64,000 nt of DNA from Escherichia phage T4: the sequence record NC_000866.4, one strand, 5' to 3'. The notes below the pieces were generated by a model that saw only the letters and a list, made by a program, of their open reading frames with translations, was not told the DNA's origin and ran no database searches. Position numbers and translations under genes: made by a program. Numbering within the stretch: the first letter of the stretch is position 1; every line of letters starts with the position of its first letter. This document shows positions 25,882 through 55,974 of the stretch, in pieces.

Positions 25882-26130
25882 TTACTTCAGTGTTACCACA
25901 AAGTGACGAACTGCTTTTCGTGCAGCAGAAGCCAGAGGCTTAGCATATTTAAGTTCATCTTTTTCCTGAAGCTCAGCAGCTAATGCAGTTTGAGCAGGAT
26001 TCAGATGTTTGAAATAACGCAGGATTTCAAGAGCTTCGGCTTCAACATCAATAGATGCGCCATAGTTTTCGTGACCATTATTCCATGCGTTTCGTTGCAG
26101 TTCAAGAGCGTGTTGTAATTGTTTAATCAT
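25882..26130 (-). CDS. rIII: rIII lysis-inhibition accessory protein
   Basis: 82-aa ORF recognised as T4 RIII. Confidence 0.85.
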   Translation of the reverse strand: MIKQLQHALELQRNAWNNGHENYGASIDVEAEALEILRYFKHLNPAQTALAAELQEKDELKYAKPLASAARKAVRHFVVTLK

Positions 26131-26277
26131 TTAAAAATTCTCGTTAGAGATTAAAACTCGGTAGTCACGTTCTTCTGAATTTCATCTTCTTTCGACAGAT
26201 CTCTCAGTTGTAGACTACCACATAGAATTGTTCGGTTAACTTATTATTCCGACACCCAATTCATATTATTATTTATA

Positions 26278-28430: not shown

Positions 28431-28706
28431 TTAAATCGCTTTGAATTCCGCAGTTTGAGATTCAAAGCGAATATCGCCTTTGATAACAAGCTCAGCATCA
28501 AGACCAAATACGACAATGATATGCGCGGAACCTGGATACAGTGTAATGGCAATAGAATCCACCTGGTCTGGAAGCAAAGTGTTCAATACATGAGTCACTT
28601 GAGCATGGATTCGAAGCTCAGCTGCGTTATCAAGTTTTTCAAACATATTATTAGCGATAATTTGGCTAAACACTACTTCTACGATTTTAGAGTAAGTCGG
28701 AAACAT
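28431..28706 (-). CDS. hypothetical protein (cd.3 position)
   Basis: 91-aa ORF. Confidence 0.5.
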   Translation of the reverse strand: MFPTYSKIVEVVFSQIIANNMFEKLDNAAELRIHAQVTHVLNTLLPDQVDSIAITLYPGSAHIIVVFGLDAELVIKGDIRFESQTAEFKAI

Positions 28707-28708
28707 AT

Positions 28709-28901
28709 TTACCTCACATAATTTTCTTCAAGCCAATCAATAACATCCAACGCATTATCAAAAGTTGAACCATCTACTCTGTCTTCTGTTTCATAATCAA
28801 GAACATCTAGGCCTACTCTTCCGTCAACAATAGGCCATAGACAAAATAGATATTTCTTTTCTTTTTCAATTTTATCACAAAGACGATAAATCTTTTCTAG
28901 G

Positions 28902-28909
<8 letters not shown>
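28709..28909 (-). CDS. hypothetical protein (cd.4 position)
   Basis: 66-aa ORF. Confidence 0.5.
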
Positions 28910-30228
<1,319 letters not shown>

Positions 30229-30232
<4 letters not shown>

Positions 30233-30528
30233 TTACATTTATCCTCTTTTAGCTCTTGACGATAATAACATATCATAGTTTTCTGGTCATGTACATATCG
30301 TTTTACATCATTAAGCCAAATACGAAATTCCTGAGAATCTTCAAATGGCATACCGACCCAGGCTTTACCATCAATAACTTTAACTTGCCAAGATAGTTTA
30401 GCTTCATCATATGACTTTATTTGCACAGGCCAATTAGGATGAACTGTTTCTTTCTTTACTTCTAGAGGCTTTGTCGAACAACCAACTAGAAGACCAATAG
30501 ATAATATTACTGCTGATAGTTTAATCAT
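30229..30528 (-). CDS. Outer-membrane lipoprotein, candidate o-spanin (pseT.2 position)
   Basis: 99 aa; signal peptide ending in lipobox LLVGC-S. Confidence 0.7.
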
Positions 30529-30878
30529 TTAGAAAGGTCCTGGATGTCTTCTGCGAACTTGTTGAAGGAGTTGTTGATTTGTTTTTCAACCAATCCTGGC
30601 TTATGAGCCACCACATCCGCCTTCTTTGCATCTTTGCGCAGTTTTTCATTTTCACGCTCAATAGCAGCAATTGCCTCACGATTTTTATTATTCATCGCAT
30701 CAATATAATTATACTGAATTCGCAAATTATTTAATGCTAAGGCGTTTTCATTGGCCGTTTTTGTAATTTCAGTAACTGATGTTTCTAATCTTTCTACCTT
30801 ATGTTTTAAAATAATAGATGTTCCGCCAAATGCTATTACAAGTAATAGCAATCCAGCTGTAAAATTACTTACATGCAT
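30525..30878 (-). CDS. Candidate i-spanin, N-terminal TM plus coiled coil (pseT.3 position)
   Basis: 117 aa; N-terminal hydrophobic helix FTAGLLLLVIAFGGTSIIL then helical heptad-rich region; overlaps the lipoprotein gene start. Confidence 0.7.
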   Translation of the reverse strand: MHVSNFTAGLLLLVIAFGGTSIILKHKVERLETSVTEITKTANENALALNNLRIQYNYIDAMNNKNREAIAAIERENEKLRKDAKKADVVAHKPGLVEKQINNSFNKFAEDIQDLSK

Positions 30879-31375
30879 AAAGTTTTAATAACCTCTACAA
30901 TATCGTCTTGAGAAAGACCGTTAATTAAAATATGATGTTCAGCTGGAGATTTAGAAATTTTAAAGCATGCCTCAACATCTTCTGCCATATCCGATGCACT
31001 ACGATTTGGATTACTAATACCAAGGCGATGTTTTCCCGTCAAAGGATTAACGATGATATAGCATTTGCAGCTATTGATATGAACATTGGGTTGAGTCTGA
31101 TTAATGAACACTTCACAATCATACTTAGCAAGTTGATTTTCTAAAAAGACTTTCATCTCTTCAACCGCATCAGGAAGCATATCACGGGCTTGCTCAAGAC
31201 GACGATTTCGATATTCTTTAATGGTCGTTTTCCGCTTGACTTGCTTAGCTAAATCTTTCTTAAGACCAGTGATATATCCAACTCGACGATTTCCTTTGAA
31301 TACAGAAATCCCATCTGTAGTATCACCGTATGCTTCAACGACCATTTCAGTAGTAATAAGTTGTAAATCCATCAT
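30869..31375 (-). CDS. alc: Alc, inhibitor of host transcription
   Basis: 168-aa ORF at T4 alc position with recognised N-terminus. Confidence 0.8.
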   Translation of the reverse strand: MMDLQLITTEMVVEAYGDTTDGISVFKGNRRVGYITGLKKDLAKQVKRKTTIKEYRNRRLEQARDMLPDAVEEMKVFLENQLAKYDCEVFINQTQPNVHINSCKCYIIVNPLTGKHRLGISNPNRSASDMAEDVEACFKISKSPAEHHILINGLSQDDIVEVIKTLCM

Positions 31376-31399
31376 AAAGTCCTCATGTTATGTCAGTAA

Positions 31400-31436
31400 G
31401 ACTACTATAACACAACACGAGGGACTTGTAAACAAC

Positions 31437-31438
<2 letters not shown>
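31400..31438 (-). promoter_or_regulatory. T4-type early promoter (duplicate of the module at 18138-18190)
   Basis: GTTTACA, spacer, TATAGT on minus strand; about 53-nt near-identical repeat. Confidence 0.55.
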
Positions 31439-33024
<1,586 letters not shown>

Positions 33025-33051
33025 AATAAAATGGGCCTTGCGGCCCACTCC

Positions 33052-33554
33052 TTAAAAGTATTTTTTAAAACTCATCATAACTTTATCATCAACATCATTA
33101 TCAATCTGTGCAACAAGGTAAGATGACAGTTCTACTTCTTGCGGCGCGGATTGAACATTATCAGAATTAAGATATTCACGAATCCAAGGATATGGATGTT
33201 TAACCGGAGCATCGGTAATTGGGCATGGAAGACCGCACTGTTTCATACGAGATACAGTTAAGTAATCAATAAAGCTCCACATGCTATTTGTATTTAATCC
33301 AGGAACATCACCATCTTTAAATAAATGAACTGCCCAGTCTTTTTCCTGGCGGTTAACTTCCATGAAAATATCAACTGCTTCTTGTTCACACTCTTGGGCA
33401 ATTTTAACCCATTCATCACCATCAGTACCGGATTGAAGTTGACGAATAATATATTGGGTGCCTTTAAGGTGAAGCTGTTCATCACGTGCAATGAACTTCA
33501 TAATCTTGGCATTACCTTCCATGATTTCCATGTTCTTATGGAAGTTAAAGGTAC
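33052..33554 (-). CDS. nrdB: Ribonucleotide reductase small subunit NrdB, exon 2
   Basis: C-terminal NrdB sequence (MEGNAKIMKFIARDEQLHL...); 3-prime splice site placed after intron-terminal G so the junction reads VSFA-C-TFNF. Confidence 0.85.
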
Positions 33555-34152
33555 CGTATGTTCGATTGAGCTCGCTAATTCTCAACCCGTTCTCTTATGA
33601 ACTGCTGCATGTTACCATGCAGTCCAGACTATATCACAATCCCGGAGGGATTCTCCCCATTTCGAGTCGCTTGACCCTACGTCCGAAGACTAGTCGTTGA
33701 ACCTTGTTTTGCAATTGTCGCCGTGCCATCGTTTATATGTTGATGGTGATAAATCTTTCTTATCACAATATGGACAATTCAATTGAATTCTATTTGGATT
33801 TAATTTACATCTGTCATTATGTTTTAGATAAAATCCAGGACCTTTACCAATGTGACCACAGAAATCACATGTGATTTCTTTTTGTGCAGGATGGGTCCCG
33901 TTCTTAACCATTTCTAATGTTTTTGCTGATGTTCTTTTCTTATGTTCTTCCATCAGAATCTTTAGGTATAGGTCCGTTAGCATCTATCCAAATTTTTCTA
34001 TAGTTCAATTGTGCATCCTCTTAAAAGTATAATCATATTTATATTATACTAATTAAAGGTGCAAGCAAAACCTTGGCTGCTAGTTTTCCATAAAGGACTT
34101 TCCAGCAATTAAAGGAGTTTTCGATAAACGTTACCGTTTAAAGGCGCATTTT
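33555..34152 (-). mobile_element. Group I self-splicing intron in nrdB (598 nt)
   Basis: in-frame stop immediately after exon 1; exon 1 ends in U and intron ends in G; core blocks shared with the td intron; contains an endonuclease-remnant ORF. Confidence 0.85.
33690..33983 (-). pseudogene. I-TevIII: Truncated intron endonuclease remnant (I-TevIII-like)
   Basis: 97-aa intron ORF with CxxC...CxxC zinc-finger-like motifs and no recognisable nuclease domain. Confidence 0.7.
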
Positions 34153-38643: not shown

Positions 38644-39660
38644 CATTATGTTCAGATAAGGTCGTTAATCTTACCCCGGAATTATATCCAGCTGCATGTC
38701 ACCATGCAGAGCAGACTATATCTCCAACTTGTTAAAGCAAGTTGTCTATCGTTTCGAGTCACTTGACCCTACTCCCCAAAGGGATAGTCGTTAGGCATTT
38801 ATGTAGAACCAATTCCATTTATCAGATTTTACACGATAAGTAACTAATCCAGACGAAATTTTAAAATGTCTAGCTGCATCTGCTGCACAATCAAAAATAA
38901 CCCCATCACATGAAATCTTTTTAATATTACTAGGCTTTTTACCTTTCATCTTTTCTGATATTTTAGATTTAGTTATGTCTGAATGCTTATGATTAAAGAA
39001 TGAATTATTTTCACCTGAACGATTTCTGCATTTACTACAAGTATAAGCAGAAGTTTGTATGCGAACACCGCACTTACAAAACTTATGGGTTTCTGGATTC
39101 CAACGCCCGTTTTTACTTCCGGGTTTACTGTAAAGAGCTTTCCGACCATCAGGTCCAAGTTTAAGCATCTTAGCTTTAACAGTTTCAGAACGTTTCTTAA
39201 TAATTTCTTCTTTTAATGGATGCGTAGAACATGTATCACCAAACGTTGCATCAGCAATATTGTATCCATTAATTTTAGAATTAAGCTCTTTAATCCAAAA
39301 ATTTTCTCGTTCAATAATCAAATCTTTCTCATATGGAATTTCTTCCAAAATAGAACATTCAAACACATTACCATGTTTGTTAAAAGACCTCTGAAGTTTT
39401 ATAGAAGAATGGCATCCTTTTTCTAAATCTTTAAAATGCCTCTTCCATCTCTTTTCAAAATCTTTAGCACTTCCTACATATACTTTATTGTTTAAAGTAT
39501 TTTTAATCTGATAAATTCCGCTTTTCATAAATACCTCTTTAAATATAGAAGTATTTATTAAAGGGCAAGTCCTACAATTTAGCACGGGATTGTCTACTAG
39601 AGAGGTTCCCCGTTTAGATAGATTACAAGTATAAGTCACCTTATACTCAGGCCTCAATTA
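38644..39660 (-). mobile_element. Group I self-splicing intron in td (about 1.0 kb) carrying I-TevI
   Basis: intron begins UAAUUGAGGCCUGAGUAUAAGGUGACUUAUACUUG right after exon 1 and ends ...AACAUAAUG before exon 2. Confidence 0.92.
38791..39528 (-). CDS. I-TevI: Intron-encoded GIY-YIG homing endonuclease I-TevI
   Basis: 245 aa from ATG at 39528, N-terminus MKSGIYQIKNTLNNKVYVGSAKDFEKRWKRH; track ORF extended 43 codons upstream into intron sequence. Confidence 0.93.
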   Translation of the reverse strand: MKSGIYQIKNTLNNKVYVGSAKDFEKRWKRHFKDLEKGCHSSIKLQRSFNKHGNVFECSILEEIPYEKDLIIERENFWIKELNSKINGYNIADATFGDTCSTHPLKEEIIKKRSETVKAKMLKLGPDGRKALYSKPGSKNGRWNPETHKFCKCGVRIQTSAYTCSKCRNRSGENNSFFNHKHSDITKSKISEKMKGKKPSNIKKISCDGVIFDCAADAARHFKISSGLVTYRVKSDKWNWFYINA

Positions 39661-54745: not shown

Positions 54746-55297
54746 ATGAAAATATATCATTATTATTTTGACACTAAAGAATTTTACAAAGAAGAAAATT
54801 ACAAACCGGTTAAAGGCCTCGGTCTTCCTGCTCATTCAACAATTAAAAAACCTTTAGAACCTAAAGAAGGATACGCGGTTGTATTTGATGAACGTACTCA
54901 GGATTGGATTTATGAAGAAGACCATCGCGGAAAACGCGCATGGACTTTTAATAAAGAAGAAATTTTTATAAGTGACATTGGAAGCCCGGTTGGTATAACT
55001 TTCGATGAGCCCGGCGAATTTGATATATGGACTGATGACGGTTGGAAAGAAGACGAAACATATAAGCGAGTTTTAATTCGTAATAGAAAAATTGAAGAAT
55101 TATATAAAGAGTTCCAAGTTTTAAATAATATGATTGAAGCTTCTGTCGCCAATAAAAAGGAAAAATTCTATTATAAAAACCTTAAGCGGTTCTTTGCTCT
55201 TTTAGAAAAGCATGAGCATTTAGGTGGTGAATTCCCTTCATGGCCTGAAAAAGAACAGAAGCCTTGGTATAAGCGTTTATTCAAGCATTACGTATAA
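54746..55297 (+). CDS. 38: gp38 tail-fibre assembly / receptor-recognition protein
   Basis: 183-aa ORF directly after gene 37. Confidence 0.88.
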   Translation: MKIYHYYFDTKEFYKEENYKPVKGLGLPAHSTIKKPLEPKEGYAVVFDERTQDWIYEEDHRGKRAWTFNKEEIFISDIGSPVGITFDEPGEFDIWTDDGWKEDETYKRVLIRNRKIEELYKEFQVLNNMIEASVANKKEKFYYKNLKRFFALLEKHEHLGGEFPSWPEKEQKPWYKRLFKHYV

Positions 55298-55300
55298 ATA
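55293..55300 (+). promoter_or_regulatory. Late promoter TATAAATA upstream of holin gene t
   Basis: exact TATAAATA then AAGGAGG ribosome-binding site. Confidence 0.6.
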
Positions 55301-55317: not shown

Positions 55318-55974
55318 ATGGCAGCACCTAGAATATCATTTTCGCCCTCTGATATTCTATTTGGTGTTCTAGATCGCTTGTTCAAAGATAACGCTACCGG
55401 GAAGGTTCTTGCTTCCCGGGTAGCTGTCGTAATTCTTTTGTTTATAATGGCGATTGTTTGGTATAGGGGAGATAGTTTCTTTGAGTACTATAAGCAATCA
55501 AAGTATGAAACATACAGTGAAATTATTGAAAAGGAAAGAACTGCACGCTTTGAATCTGTCGCCCTGGAACAACTCCAGATAGTTCATATATCATCTGAGG
55601 CAGACTTTAGTGCGGTGTATTCTTTCCGCCCTAAAAACTTAAACTATTTTGTTGATATTATAGCATACGAAGGAAAATTACCTTCAACAATAAGTGAAAA
55701 ATCACTTGGAGGATATCCTGTTGATAAAACTATGGATGAATATACAGTTCATTTAAATGGACGTCATTATTATTCCAACTCAAAATTTGCTTTTTTACCA
55801 ACTAAAAAGCCTACTCCCGAAATAAACTACATGTACAGTTGTCCATATTTTAATTTGGATAATATCTATGCTGGAACGATAACCATGTACTGGTATAGAA
55901 ATGATCATATAAGTAATGACCGCCTTGAATCAATATGTGCTCAGGCGGCCAGAATATTAGGAAGGGCTAAATAA
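55318..55974 (+). CDS. t: Holin T
   Basis: 218-aa ORF with a single N-terminal TM segment (VAVVILLFIMAIVWY) and large periplasmic domain. Confidence 0.9.
   Translation: MAAPRISFSPSDILFGVLDRLFKDNATGKVLASRVAVVILLFIMAIVWYRGDSFFEYYKQSKYETYSEIIEKERTARFESVALEQLQIVHISSEADFSAVYSFRPKNLNYFVDIIAYEGKLPSTISEKSLGGYPVDKTMDEYTVHLNGRHYYSNSKFAFLPTKKPTPEINYMYSCPYFNLDNIYAGTITMYWYRNDHISNDRLESICAQAARILGRAK

What the first reader, a model, noticed from the sequence alone, without database searches (positions are those of the whole stretch)
30229..30878. Overlapping i-spanin / o-spanin-like gene pair
The 117-aa ORF has one N-terminal TM helix followed by a long helical, charged region. The overlapping downstream 99-aa ORF starts with a signal peptide ending in a lipobox (LLVGC followed by S). 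This is the architecture of a two-component spanin that disrupts the outer membrane at lysis, located far from the holin gene t at 55318.
Basis: partly seen in the sequence, partly recalled or inferred. Interest (0 to 1): 0.4.

Follow-up and report, generated by a model that had tools for sequence, protein, structure and literature searches.

The report
Phage T4 spanin genes pseT.3/pseT.2

Summary
The window is phage T4: window 30100-31000 is 100% identical to T4 records.

- **The two ORFs.** Both lie on the minus strand. They are pseT.3 (30525..30878, 117 aa) and pseT.2 (30229..30528, 99 aa).
- **PseT.3.** It has one N-terminal transmembrane segment (residues 6-24) and is otherwise predicted helical.
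- **PseT.2.** It has a lipoprotein signal with lipobox LVGC, Cys17 and Ser at +2. It also has two C-terminal cysteines, C87 and C98.
- **Conservation.** All these features are kept in ten diverged gene pairs.
- **Chance.** PseT.2 is the only lipobox ORF in the 64-kb window. No TM-then-lipobox pair arose in 100 shuffles.
- **Families.** PHROGs files both proteins as "Rz-like spanin" (E 1e-37 and 3.5e-43).
- **Published test.** Kongari et al. 2018 (PMC6139136) showed that pseT.3 plus pseT.2 complement a lambda Rz-am/Rz1-am lysis defect. They also showed that C87S and C98S abolish lysis.

One correction: the genes share only the 4-nt ATGA stop/start junction, and the field classes T4 as the "separated" architecture, not "overlapped".

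One point of context: published omics data class both genes as early-transcribed, whereas the holin gene t sits behind a late-promoter motif.

Verdict: real, correctly interpreted, already known.

The parts
30525..30878 (-). pseT.3, the i-spanin (117 aa): an integral inner-membrane subunit with a helical periplasmic domain and no cysteines.
   Evidence: ORF. 100% identical to T4 and annotated pseT.3. phrog_739 'Rz-like spanin', E 1.3e-37, full length. AF2 predicts helices 5-85 and 94-116, mean pLDDT 82.7.
30807..30863 (-). Codons 6-24 of pseT.3: the single N-terminal transmembrane segment (FTAGLLLLVIAFGGTSIIL). The positively charged flank KHK follows it.
   Evidence: Kyte-Doolittle 19-mer maximum of 2.24 at residues 6-24. 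All windows above 1.6 lie within residues 5-28. An N-terminal hydrophobic segment is present in the 10 homologues.
30591..30602 (-). Codons 93-96 of pseT.3 (K-P-G-L): a conserved break between periplasmic helices alpha1 and alpha2.
   Evidence: K93, P94 and L96 are the only invariant columns in the 10-sequence i-spanin alignment. AF2 helix breaks and a pLDDT dip fall at residues 81-100.
30525..30528 (-). ATGA junction: the pseT.2 start codon overlaps the pseT.3 stop codon. This suggests translational coupling (inferred).
   Evidence: Sequence CTTTCTAAATGATTAAA. The same 4-nt junction occurs in 8 of 10 diverged pairs.
30229..30528 (-). pseT.2, the o-spanin (99-aa precursor, 83-aa mature): an outer-membrane lipoprotein subunit.
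   Evidence: ORF. Annotated pseT.2, 'outer membrane lipoprotein Rz1' or 'o-spanin' in T4-type records. phrog_812 'Rz-like spanin', E 3.5e-43. AF2 predicts a signal helix at 3-15, an unstructured linker, a beta hairpin at 48-59 and a helix at 62-89, mean pLDDT 81.8.
30478..30489 (-). Lipobox L14-V15-G16-C17 of pseT.2. Cys17 is the predicted acylated first residue of the mature protein. The +2 residue is Ser, not Asp, so outer-membrane sorting is expected.
   Evidence: Regex and PROSITE-like pattern match. C17 is invariant and G16 nearly invariant. The +2 residue is S or A in all 10 homologues.
30235..30270 (-). Codons 87-98 of pseT.2, carrying Cys87 and Cys98, the two periplasmic cysteines.
   Evidence: Both are invariant in the 10-sequence alignment. 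C87S and C98S are each lysis-defective in published work (PMC6139136, Fig. 8).
31404..31432 (-). Sigma-70-type promoter-like site (TTTACA-17-TATAGT with a TG extension) just upstream of alc. It is the probable early promoter of the alc-pseT.3-pseT.2-pseT.1-pseT run (inferred).
   Evidence: Consensus scan, 10 of 12 matches, and the sequence itself. The scan as a whole found no more sites than shuffles did, so the site alone is weak evidence. Early RNA classes for alc, pseT.3 and pseT.2 in published omics data support it.
55318..55974 (+). Context only: holin gene t (218 aa), the upstream trigger of the lysis pathway. It lies 24.4 kb away on the other strand, with TATAAATA at 55293..55300.
   Evidence: ORF. 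Annotation of T4T. Late-promoter motif.

Best explanation
The pair is the bacteriophage T4 two-component spanin. PseT.3 is the i-spanin and PseT.2 is the o-spanin.

Shown by the sequence:
- PseT.3 has one N-terminal membrane anchor. The rest is a helical domain with a conserved KPGL break.
- PseT.2 has a signal peptidase II-type signal and lipobox. Ser at +2 predicts sorting to the outer membrane.
- A flexible linker in PseT.2 is followed by a conserved beta-hairpin and helix module carrying two invariant cysteines.

Shown in the literature:
- Together the two genes replace lambda Rz/Rz1 in lysis.
- Both PseT.2 cysteines are needed.
- A disulfide-linked PseT.2 dimer appears only when PseT.3 is present.

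Inferred from the lambda model:
- The two subunits bind through their periplasmic C-terminal parts.
- This forms a bridge from inner to outer membrane that threads the peptidoglycan mesh.
- The complexes accumulate harmlessly from early in infection.
- When holin T triggers and endolysin E removes the peptidoglycan, the complexes are freed to diffuse and change conformation.
- They then pull the two membranes together and fuse them, which destroys the outer membrane and releases the progeny.
For: - Identity: window 30100-31000 is 100% identical to several T4 records, where the ORFs are annotated pseT.3 and pseT.2.
- Anatomy: one TM segment at residues 6-24 of PseT.3. PseT.2 has lipobox LVGC, Cys17 and Ser at +2, plus Cys87 and Cys98.
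- Not chance: PseT.2 is the sole lipobox ORF in 64 kb, and 0 of 100 shuffles gave such a pair.
- Family: phrog_739 and phrog_812, both 'Rz-like spanin', at E 1.3e-37 and 3.5e-43 over the full length.
- Spread: 1240 phage records encode a PseT.2 relative.
- Conservation: in ten diverged pairs from Straboviridae genera and one T5-like phage the i-spanin gene sits directly upstream. The lipobox Cys and both C-terminal Cys are invariant. The +2 residue is never Asp.
- Structure: AF2 secondary structure is broadly similar to the published alpha1/alpha2 and beta-alpha description; the short beta2 strand is not seen in the model.
- Experiment (PMC6139136): complementation of lambda Rz-am/Rz1-am. C87S and C98S are non-lytic. 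The PseT.2 dimer depends on PseT.3.
- Mechanistic model and the 'separated' class.
- Expression: pseT.2 is early RNA and early protein. pseT.3 is early RNA and middle protein (supplement of PMC9697503).
Against: - No Pfam family is matched above threshold by either protein. Homology to lambda Rz/Rz1 is therefore not demonstrated, and the pair is a functional equivalent.
- No solved structure or fold match exists.
- The functional test in the literature was done in a lambda lysogen, not in T4. I found no paper in the searchable library reporting the lysis phenotype of a T4 pseT.3 or pseT.2 knockout.
- Lipid modification, outer-membrane location, direct PseT.3-PseT.2 binding and membrane fusion are inferred for T4 from the lambda model.
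Confidence: 0.97

Rival explanations
1. The two proteins are unrelated envelope proteins that merely sit side by side. One example would be an early-expressed lipoprotein that blocks superinfection or masks a receptor (like T5 Llp or the Cor lipoproteins), next to a small membrane protein. On this reading they have no role in lysis.
For: Both genes are transcribed early, in a block of nucleic-acid-metabolism genes (alc, pseT, rnlA) and far from t. No late-promoter motif lies on their strand closer than 34036. Neither protein has a Pfam family.
Against: The pair restores lysis to lambda Rz-am/Rz1-am, and point mutants in PseT.2 abolish this (PMC6139136). The two genes stay adjacent and in the same order across very diverged phages, and the cysteines stay conserved. 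Early synthesis is compatible with the spanin model, because the complexes are inert until the peptidoglycan is removed.
Confidence: 0.02
2. The ORFs are chance open reading frames, or their starts are miscalled, so that the TM segment and the lipobox are not translated.
For: The window is AT-rich, so spurious ORFs are common. Many short overlapping ORFs are listed.
Against: Full-length family hits. Protein-level conservation down to 30-37% identity with the signal features retained. Both proteins were detected by proteomics and by antibodies in published work. 0 of 100 shuffles reproduce the arrangement.
Confidence: 0.005

Closest known systems
Bacteriophage T4 PseT.3 / PseT.2 spanin (Summer et al. 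2007, J Mol Biol 373:1098; Kongari et al. 2018, PMC6139136)
   Same: It is the same locus. The DNA is 100% identical. The lengths match (117 aa, and a 99-aa precursor giving an 83-aa mature protein). Cys87 and Cys98 match, and so does the location away from t and e.
   Different: Nothing. The NC_000866-based gene table supplied with PMC9697503 and the T4T record HM137666 still label them 'conserved hypothetical protein', 'hypothetical protein' or 'predicted membrane protein'. That is annotation lag only.
Lambda Rz / Rz1 (the prototype two-component spanin, embedded architecture)
   Same: Same topology: a type II inner-membrane protein with a helical periplasmic domain, plus an outer-membrane lipoprotein. 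Same function, shown by cross-complementation. Homotypic disulfide bonds are needed in both.
   Different: No detectable Pfam-level sequence relationship. The genes are side by side, not nested. PseT.3 has no cysteines, and only alpha1 is predicted to form a coiled coil. PseT.2 is longer, structured (beta hairpin plus helix) and not proline-rich, and needs both of its cysteines. It is expressed early and lies outside any lysis cassette.
P2 LysB / LysC (overlapped two-component spanin)
   Same: The same two-subunit logic, with the same localisation signals.
   Different: In P2 the o-spanin gene starts inside the i-spanin gene and runs beyond it. Here only the ATGA junction is shared.
T1 gp11 (unimolecular spanin)
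   Same: An outer-membrane lipoprotein signal at the N-terminus, and a role in disrupting the outer membrane.
   Different: gp11 also carries a C-terminal TM domain in the same chain. PseT.2 has no hydrophobic window outside its signal peptide, and it needs a separate inner-membrane partner.

Membership tests
Two-component spanin (functional class; criteria of Summer 2007 and Kongari 2018) | The i-spanin has a single N-terminal transmembrane domain, with the bulk of the protein periplasmic and mostly helical. | tested here: met
   KD19 maximum of 2.24 at residues 6-24, with no later hydrophobic window. AF2 predicts helices 5-85 and 94-116. N-in/C-out orientation was not tested here.
Two-component spanin (functional class; criteria of Summer 2007 and Kongari 2018) | The o-spanin has a signal peptidase II signal with a lipobox Cys, and a +2 residue compatible with outer-membrane sorting (not Asp). 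| tested here: met
   MIKLSAVILSIGLLVGC|S matches the PROSITE-like lipoprotein pattern. Cys is invariant, and +2 is S or A in 10 of 10 homologues. Actual lipidation was not tested.
Two-component spanin (functional class; criteria of Summer 2007 and Kongari 2018) | The two genes are adjacent on one strand, with the i-spanin gene first. | tested here: met
   30525..30878 followed by 30229..30528 on the minus strand. The same order occurs in all 10 diverged loci.
Two-component spanin (functional class; criteria of Summer 2007 and Kongari 2018) | At least one periplasmic cysteine allows homotypic disulfide-linked dimers. | tested here: met
   Cys87 and Cys98 of PseT.2 are present and invariant. 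Their requirement was shown experimentally in PMC6139136.
Two-component spanin (functional class; criteria of Summer 2007 and Kongari 2018) | Required for outer-membrane disruption, or able to complement a spanin-defective phage. | not testable with these tools
   Published: ppseT.3pseT.2 complements MC4100(lambda Rz-am Rz1-am) in 10 mM MgCl2 (PMC6139136, Fig. 8b). I found no report of a T4 knockout phenotype.
Two-component spanin (functional class; criteria of Summer 2007 and Kongari 2018) | The i- and o-subunits form a physical complex spanning the periplasm. | not testable with these tools
   Indirect evidence only: the PseT.2 disulfide dimer is seen only when PseT.3 is present.
T4 PseT.3 / PseT.2 sequence families (phrog_739 / phrog_812) | A significant full-length profile match. 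| tested here: met
   E 1.3e-37 (residues 1-117 on profile positions 2-122 of 122) and E 3.5e-43 (residues 1-99 on profile positions 1-97 of 102). 100% DNA identity to T4.
Lambda Rz / Rz1 sequence families (Pfam) | A Pfam match above the gathering score to an Rz or Rz1 family. | tested here: not met
   No Rz or Rz1 Pfam family was reported for either protein at E up to 0.1. The only hits are sub-threshold coiled-coil-type matches for PseT.3. Weak hits to other i-spanin PHROGs (phrog_214 at 1.9e-6, phrog_89 at 7e-4) may reflect coiled-coil composition.
'Overlapped' spanin gene architecture (P2 type) | The o-spanin reading frame starts within the i-spanin coding sequence and extends beyond it. 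| tested here: not met
   Only the 4-nt ATGA stop/start overlap is shared. The literature files T4 as 'separated'.
Unimolecular spanin (T1 gp11 type) | A lipobox signal and a C-terminal TM domain in a single polypeptide. | tested here: not met
   PseT.2 has hydrophobic windows only at residues 1-22.

The most novel reading that the evidence does not exclude
The T4 spanin subunits are made early, in an operon with alc and pseT, rather than with the late lysis genes. The early-made, periplasm-spanning complex might therefore have a second job before lysis. It could tether the envelope during infection, or contribute to lysis inhibition or to resistance against lysis from without. The plainer alternative is that early synthesis only gives time for Lol sorting and for the Dsb-dependent disulfide isomerisation. 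My evidence does not exclude a second role, but nothing points to it directly.
Probability: 0.07. Interest if true: 0.4.

Novelty: already known. Interest (0 to 1): 0.07.

Why it matters
It matters little as a discovery. The locus was identified in 2007 and tested in 2018. It is useful in two smaller ways.

First, it is a positive control for the scan. A reader with no tools correctly recognised a spanin from a TM helix plus a lipobox, in a genome where the genes lie 24 kb from the holin and outside any lysis cassette.

Second, it shows how far annotation lags. The T4T record HM137666 and the NC_000866-based gene table supplied with PMC9697503 still call these proteins 'hypothetical', 'conserved hypothetical' or 'predicted membrane protein', as do many of the T4-like records listed.

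The open questions are mechanistic. There is no structure of any spanin complex, no T4-native knockout phenotype in the searchable literature, and no explanation for the early expression.

Tried and rejected
- **Pfam scan.** No family above threshold for either spanin subunit. The sub-threshold hits for PseT.3 (crescentin rod, DUF4446, BRE1) look like coiled-coil or compositional noise, so I set them aside.
- **PDB sequence searches.** Nothing below E 0.1.
- **Foldseek of the PseT.2 model against PDB.** No match with E at or below 0.001. The fold has no solved relative. The model rests on a shallow 10-sequence alignment (pTM 0.50), so I used only its secondary structure.
- **Late-promoter search.** TATAAATA occurs 13 times against 9.2 expected, so there is no overall excess. 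None lies on the minus strand between 30878 and 34036. I therefore dropped the idea that the spanin genes have their own late promoter.
- **General sigma-70 and terminator scan of 29000-33500.** No more sites than in shuffles. Only the site upstream of alc was kept, and then only because the omics data agree with it.
- **Embedded o-spanin check.** I asked whether a second frame inside pseT.3 might encode a lambda-style embedded o-spanin. The only internal ORF is 30521..30679 on the minus strand (52 aa), and it has no lipobox. Rejected.
- **Rfam at gathering threshold and tRNA scans of the whole window.** No hits.
- **Literature searches for a T4-native spanin knockout.** These returned only the 2018 spanin survey and one unrelated preprint.

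Full report
**1. What is there**

ORF listing of window 28500-32500 shows two minus-strand ORFs at the coordinates of the finding: 30525..30878 (117 aa) and 30229..30528 (99 aa). Their neighbours are:
- Upstream on the same strand: a 168-aa ORF (30869..31375) and a 386-aa ORF.
- Downstream: a 75-aa ORF (30005..30232) and a 301-aa ORF (29099..30004).

The finding did not state a strand. Both genes are on the minus strand.

**2. Identity of the sequence**

Megablast of window 30100-31000 against the phage collection gives 100% identity over 100% of the query to many Escherichia phage T4 records. In all, 504 records match.

In T4T (HM137666) the ORFs are annotated pseT.3 ('predicted membrane protein') and pseT.2 ('hypothetical protein'). 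The local gene order is rnlA, alc, pseT.3, pseT.2, pseT.1, pseT (polynucleotide kinase). Newer T4-like records call the same genes 'i-spanin / o-spanin', 'spanin Rz / outer membrane lipoprotein Rz1' or 'Rz-like spanin'.

Coordinates in a published T4 gene table put pseT.2 at 135132..135431 and pseT.3 at 135428..135781. The window is therefore the reference T4 genome shifted by 104,903.

**3. Check of the observation**

PseT.3:
- Its strongest 19-residue hydropathy window scores 2.24 at residues 6-24 (FTAGLLLLVIAFGGTSIIL).
- All windows above 1.6 lie between residues 5 and 28.
- It has 17 K+R, 15 D+E and no cysteines.

PseT.2:
- It starts MIKLSAVILSIGLLVGC-S.
- This matches a PROSITE-style prokaryotic lipoprotein pattern and the lipobox L-[ASTVI]-[GAS]-C at residues 14-17.
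- The +2 residue is Ser. By established knowledge of Lol sorting in E. coli, where Asp at +2 retains a lipoprotein in the inner membrane, this predicts an outer-membrane location.
- The mature protein is 83 aa, with cysteines at 87 and 98.

Against chance:
- PseT.2 is the only lipoprotein-pattern match among 126 ATG-ORFs of at least 60 aa in all six frames of the window.
- The arrangement 'single N-terminal TM ORF followed within 60 nt by a lipobox ORF on the same strand' is found once in the window.
- It is found in 0 of 100 shuffled windows.

One correction concerns the overlap. The junction reads ...CTT TCT AAA TGA with ATG ATT AAA in the other frame. The genes therefore share only ATGA at 30525..30528.

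**4. Family and conservation**

PHROGs places PseT.3 in phrog_739 (E 1.3e-37) and PseT.2 in phrog_812 (E 3.5e-43). Both families are labelled 'Rz-like spanin', category lysis, and both matches are full length. Pfam has no family above threshold for either protein.

tblastn with PseT.2 finds relatives in 1240 phage records, down to about 30% identity. The hosts include Escherichia, Klebsiella, Enterobacter, Aeromonas, Serratia and Pectobacterium.

I fetched nine diverged loci and compared them with T4. They cover the genera Mosigvirus, Kanagawavirus, Gelderlandvirus, Jiaodavirus, Winklervirus, Cinqassovirus, Pseudotevenvirus and Ceceduovirus, plus the T5-like Pectobacterium phage My1.
- In every locus a 108-128-aa ORF with an N-terminal hydrophobic segment lies directly upstream of the lipoprotein gene.
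- The lipobox Cys is invariant.
- The +2 residue is S or A and never D.
- Both C-terminal cysteines of the o-spanin are invariant.
- In the i-spanin the only invariant residues are K93, P94 and L96. They belong to the motif VVAxKPGLVEKQIN between the two helices.
- The ATGA junction recurs in 8 of 10 pairs.

This is the signature of a co-evolving, co-translated pair.

**5. Predicted structure**

AlphaFold2 on the 10-sequence alignments gave these models:
- PseT.3: mean pLDDT 82.7. One long helix at 5-85 covers the TM segment plus alpha1. Short breaks and a confidence dip fall at residues 81-100. A second helix runs 94-116.
- PseT.2: mean pLDDT 81.8. It has a signal helix at 3-15, a segment with no regular structure at 17-47, a beta hairpin at 48-59 and a helix at 62-89.

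pTM values are low (0.37 and 0.50) and the alignments are shallow, so I use only the secondary structure. It is broadly similar to the published description. That description gives alpha1 and alpha2 for PseT.3. For PseT.2 it gives a flexible linker followed by beta1-alpha-beta2, conserved from W47 to R90 (PMC6139136). The short beta2 strand after the helix is not seen in the model.

Sequence search of the PDB and Foldseek of the PseT.2 model found nothing significant. No solved structure is a relative.

**6. What the literature has already shown**

Kongari et al. 2018 (BMC Bioinformatics 19:326, PMC6139136) treat T4 PseT.3/PseT.2 as one of three paradigm two-component spanins. They use it as the type example of the 'separated' gene architecture. 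They cite Summer et al. 2007 (J Mol Biol 373:1098) for the survey that established the gene architectures.

Their Fig. 8 reports the following:
- A plasmid carrying pseT.3 and pseT.2 complements the lysis defect of a lambda Rz-am/Rz1-am lysogen in 10 mM MgCl2.
- PseT.2 C87S, C98S and the double mutant are all lysis-defective.
- PseT.3 forms no SDS-stable dimer.
- About 30% of PseT.2 is in a reducible dimer, and only when PseT.3 is present.

**7. How it most likely works**

Shown by the sequence: the membrane signals of both subunits, their conservation, and the coupled gene arrangement.

Shown in the literature: functional equivalence to Rz/Rz1, and the cysteine requirement.

Inferred from the lambda model summarised in PMC6139136:
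- The i-spanin sits in the inner membrane and the lipoprotein o-spanin in the inner leaflet of the outer membrane.
- They bind through their periplasmic C-terminal regions and thread the peptidoglycan mesh, which cages them.
- After the holin triggers and the endolysin degrades the wall, the complexes diffuse laterally and change conformation.
- They then fuse the inner and outer membranes.
- Without spanins, cells end as fragile spheres bounded by the outer membrane. In shaken cultures this phenotype is seen only when divalent cations stabilise the outer membrane.

**8. Expression context**

The spanin genes are on the strand of the T4 early and middle genes. A promoter-like site lies just upstream of alc at 31432..31404 on the minus strand. 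It reads TTTACA-17-TATAGT with a TG extension, within GTTTACAAG...TGTTATAGT. From my own knowledge it resembles the T4 early-promoter consensus. The scan as a whole found no more sites than shuffles did, so this is only suggestive.

No late-promoter motif TATAAATA lies on the minus strand between the genes and 34036. One sits 18 nt upstream of the t start codon, at 55293..55300.

Published time-resolved omics data classify pseT.2 as early RNA and early protein, and pseT.3 as early RNA and middle protein (supplementary files 4 and 6 of PMC9697503). The spanin is thus made long before the holin acts. This fits a device that is inert until the wall is removed. It is the one aspect that leaves room for an unexplored second role (see the novel case).

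**9. Comparison and membership**

As a functional class, every testable defining feature of a two-component spanin is met:
- a TM-anchored helical i-subunit;
- a lipobox o-subunit with a non-Asp +2 residue;
- adjacency of the genes in the right order;
- periplasmic cysteines.

It is a member, at 100% identity, of the T4 PseT.3/PseT.2 sequence families.

It does not meet the other families I considered:
- Lambda Rz/Rz1 at the sequence level: no Pfam hit.
- The 'overlapped' architecture class: only the 4-nt ATGA junction is shared.
- The unimolecular class: PseT.2 has no C-terminal TM domain.

**10. Verdict**

Interest is low.

Noticed in passing
window 30005..30232 (-): pseT.1 (75 aa) is joined to pseT.2 by a second ATGA stop/start overlap (AAA TGT AAA TGA / ATG ATT). 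It abuts pseT with no gap, and alc overlaps the pseT.3 start by 10 nt. The genes alc, pseT.3, pseT.2, pseT.1 and pseT therefore form one tightly packed run. PseT.1 has no Pfam hit and falls in phrog_2347 (unknown function). It is absent or displaced in several diverged loci.
   Followed up: partly
L007:1109-1495, L010:1112-1489, L008:1145-1516: The i-spanins of Aeromonas phages Aeh1 and AS-sw and of the T5-like Pectobacterium phage My1 carry two cysteines near the C-terminus (for example C120 and C127). The T4 i-spanin lacks them. Their o-spanins keep the C87/C98 pair. This suggests a different disulfide arrangement within the same family.
   Followed up: no
L008 (Pectobacterium phage My1, Demerecviridae) 1145-1836: A T5-like phage encodes a PseT.2-type o-spanin (30% identity, E 6e-8). 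It is paired with an i-spanin through a 34-nt overlap instead of ATGA, and it lies next to a dNMP kinase gene. The same o-spanin family therefore occurs in two phage families, with a different gene junction.
   Followed up: partly
window 33605..33845 (-) and 38692..38922 (-): Rfam's group I intron model (RF00028) matches inside nrdB and at a second site that probably lies in td. Both matches are below the gathering score (35.7 and 40.3 bits against 50; E 2e-6 and 1e-7). A gathering-threshold scan of the whole window therefore reports nothing. T4T annotates nrdB as a two-piece join holding the I-TevIII ORF.
   Followed up: partly
window 55293..55300 (+); 26270..26277 (-): The T4 late-promoter motif TATAAATA lies 18 nt upstream of the holin t start codon. 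It also lies in the gap between gene 31 and rIII, the lysis-inhibition accessory gene, which is at about window 25883..26131 by offset from T4T. Across the window the motif is not over-represented (13 observed, 9.2 expected).
   Followed up: no
window 30229..30878 versus public records: Annotation lag. T4T (HM137666), several other T4 records and the NCBI-derived gene table used in PMC9697503 still label the two experimentally validated spanin subunits 'hypothetical', 'conserved hypothetical' or 'predicted membrane protein'.
   Followed up: yes
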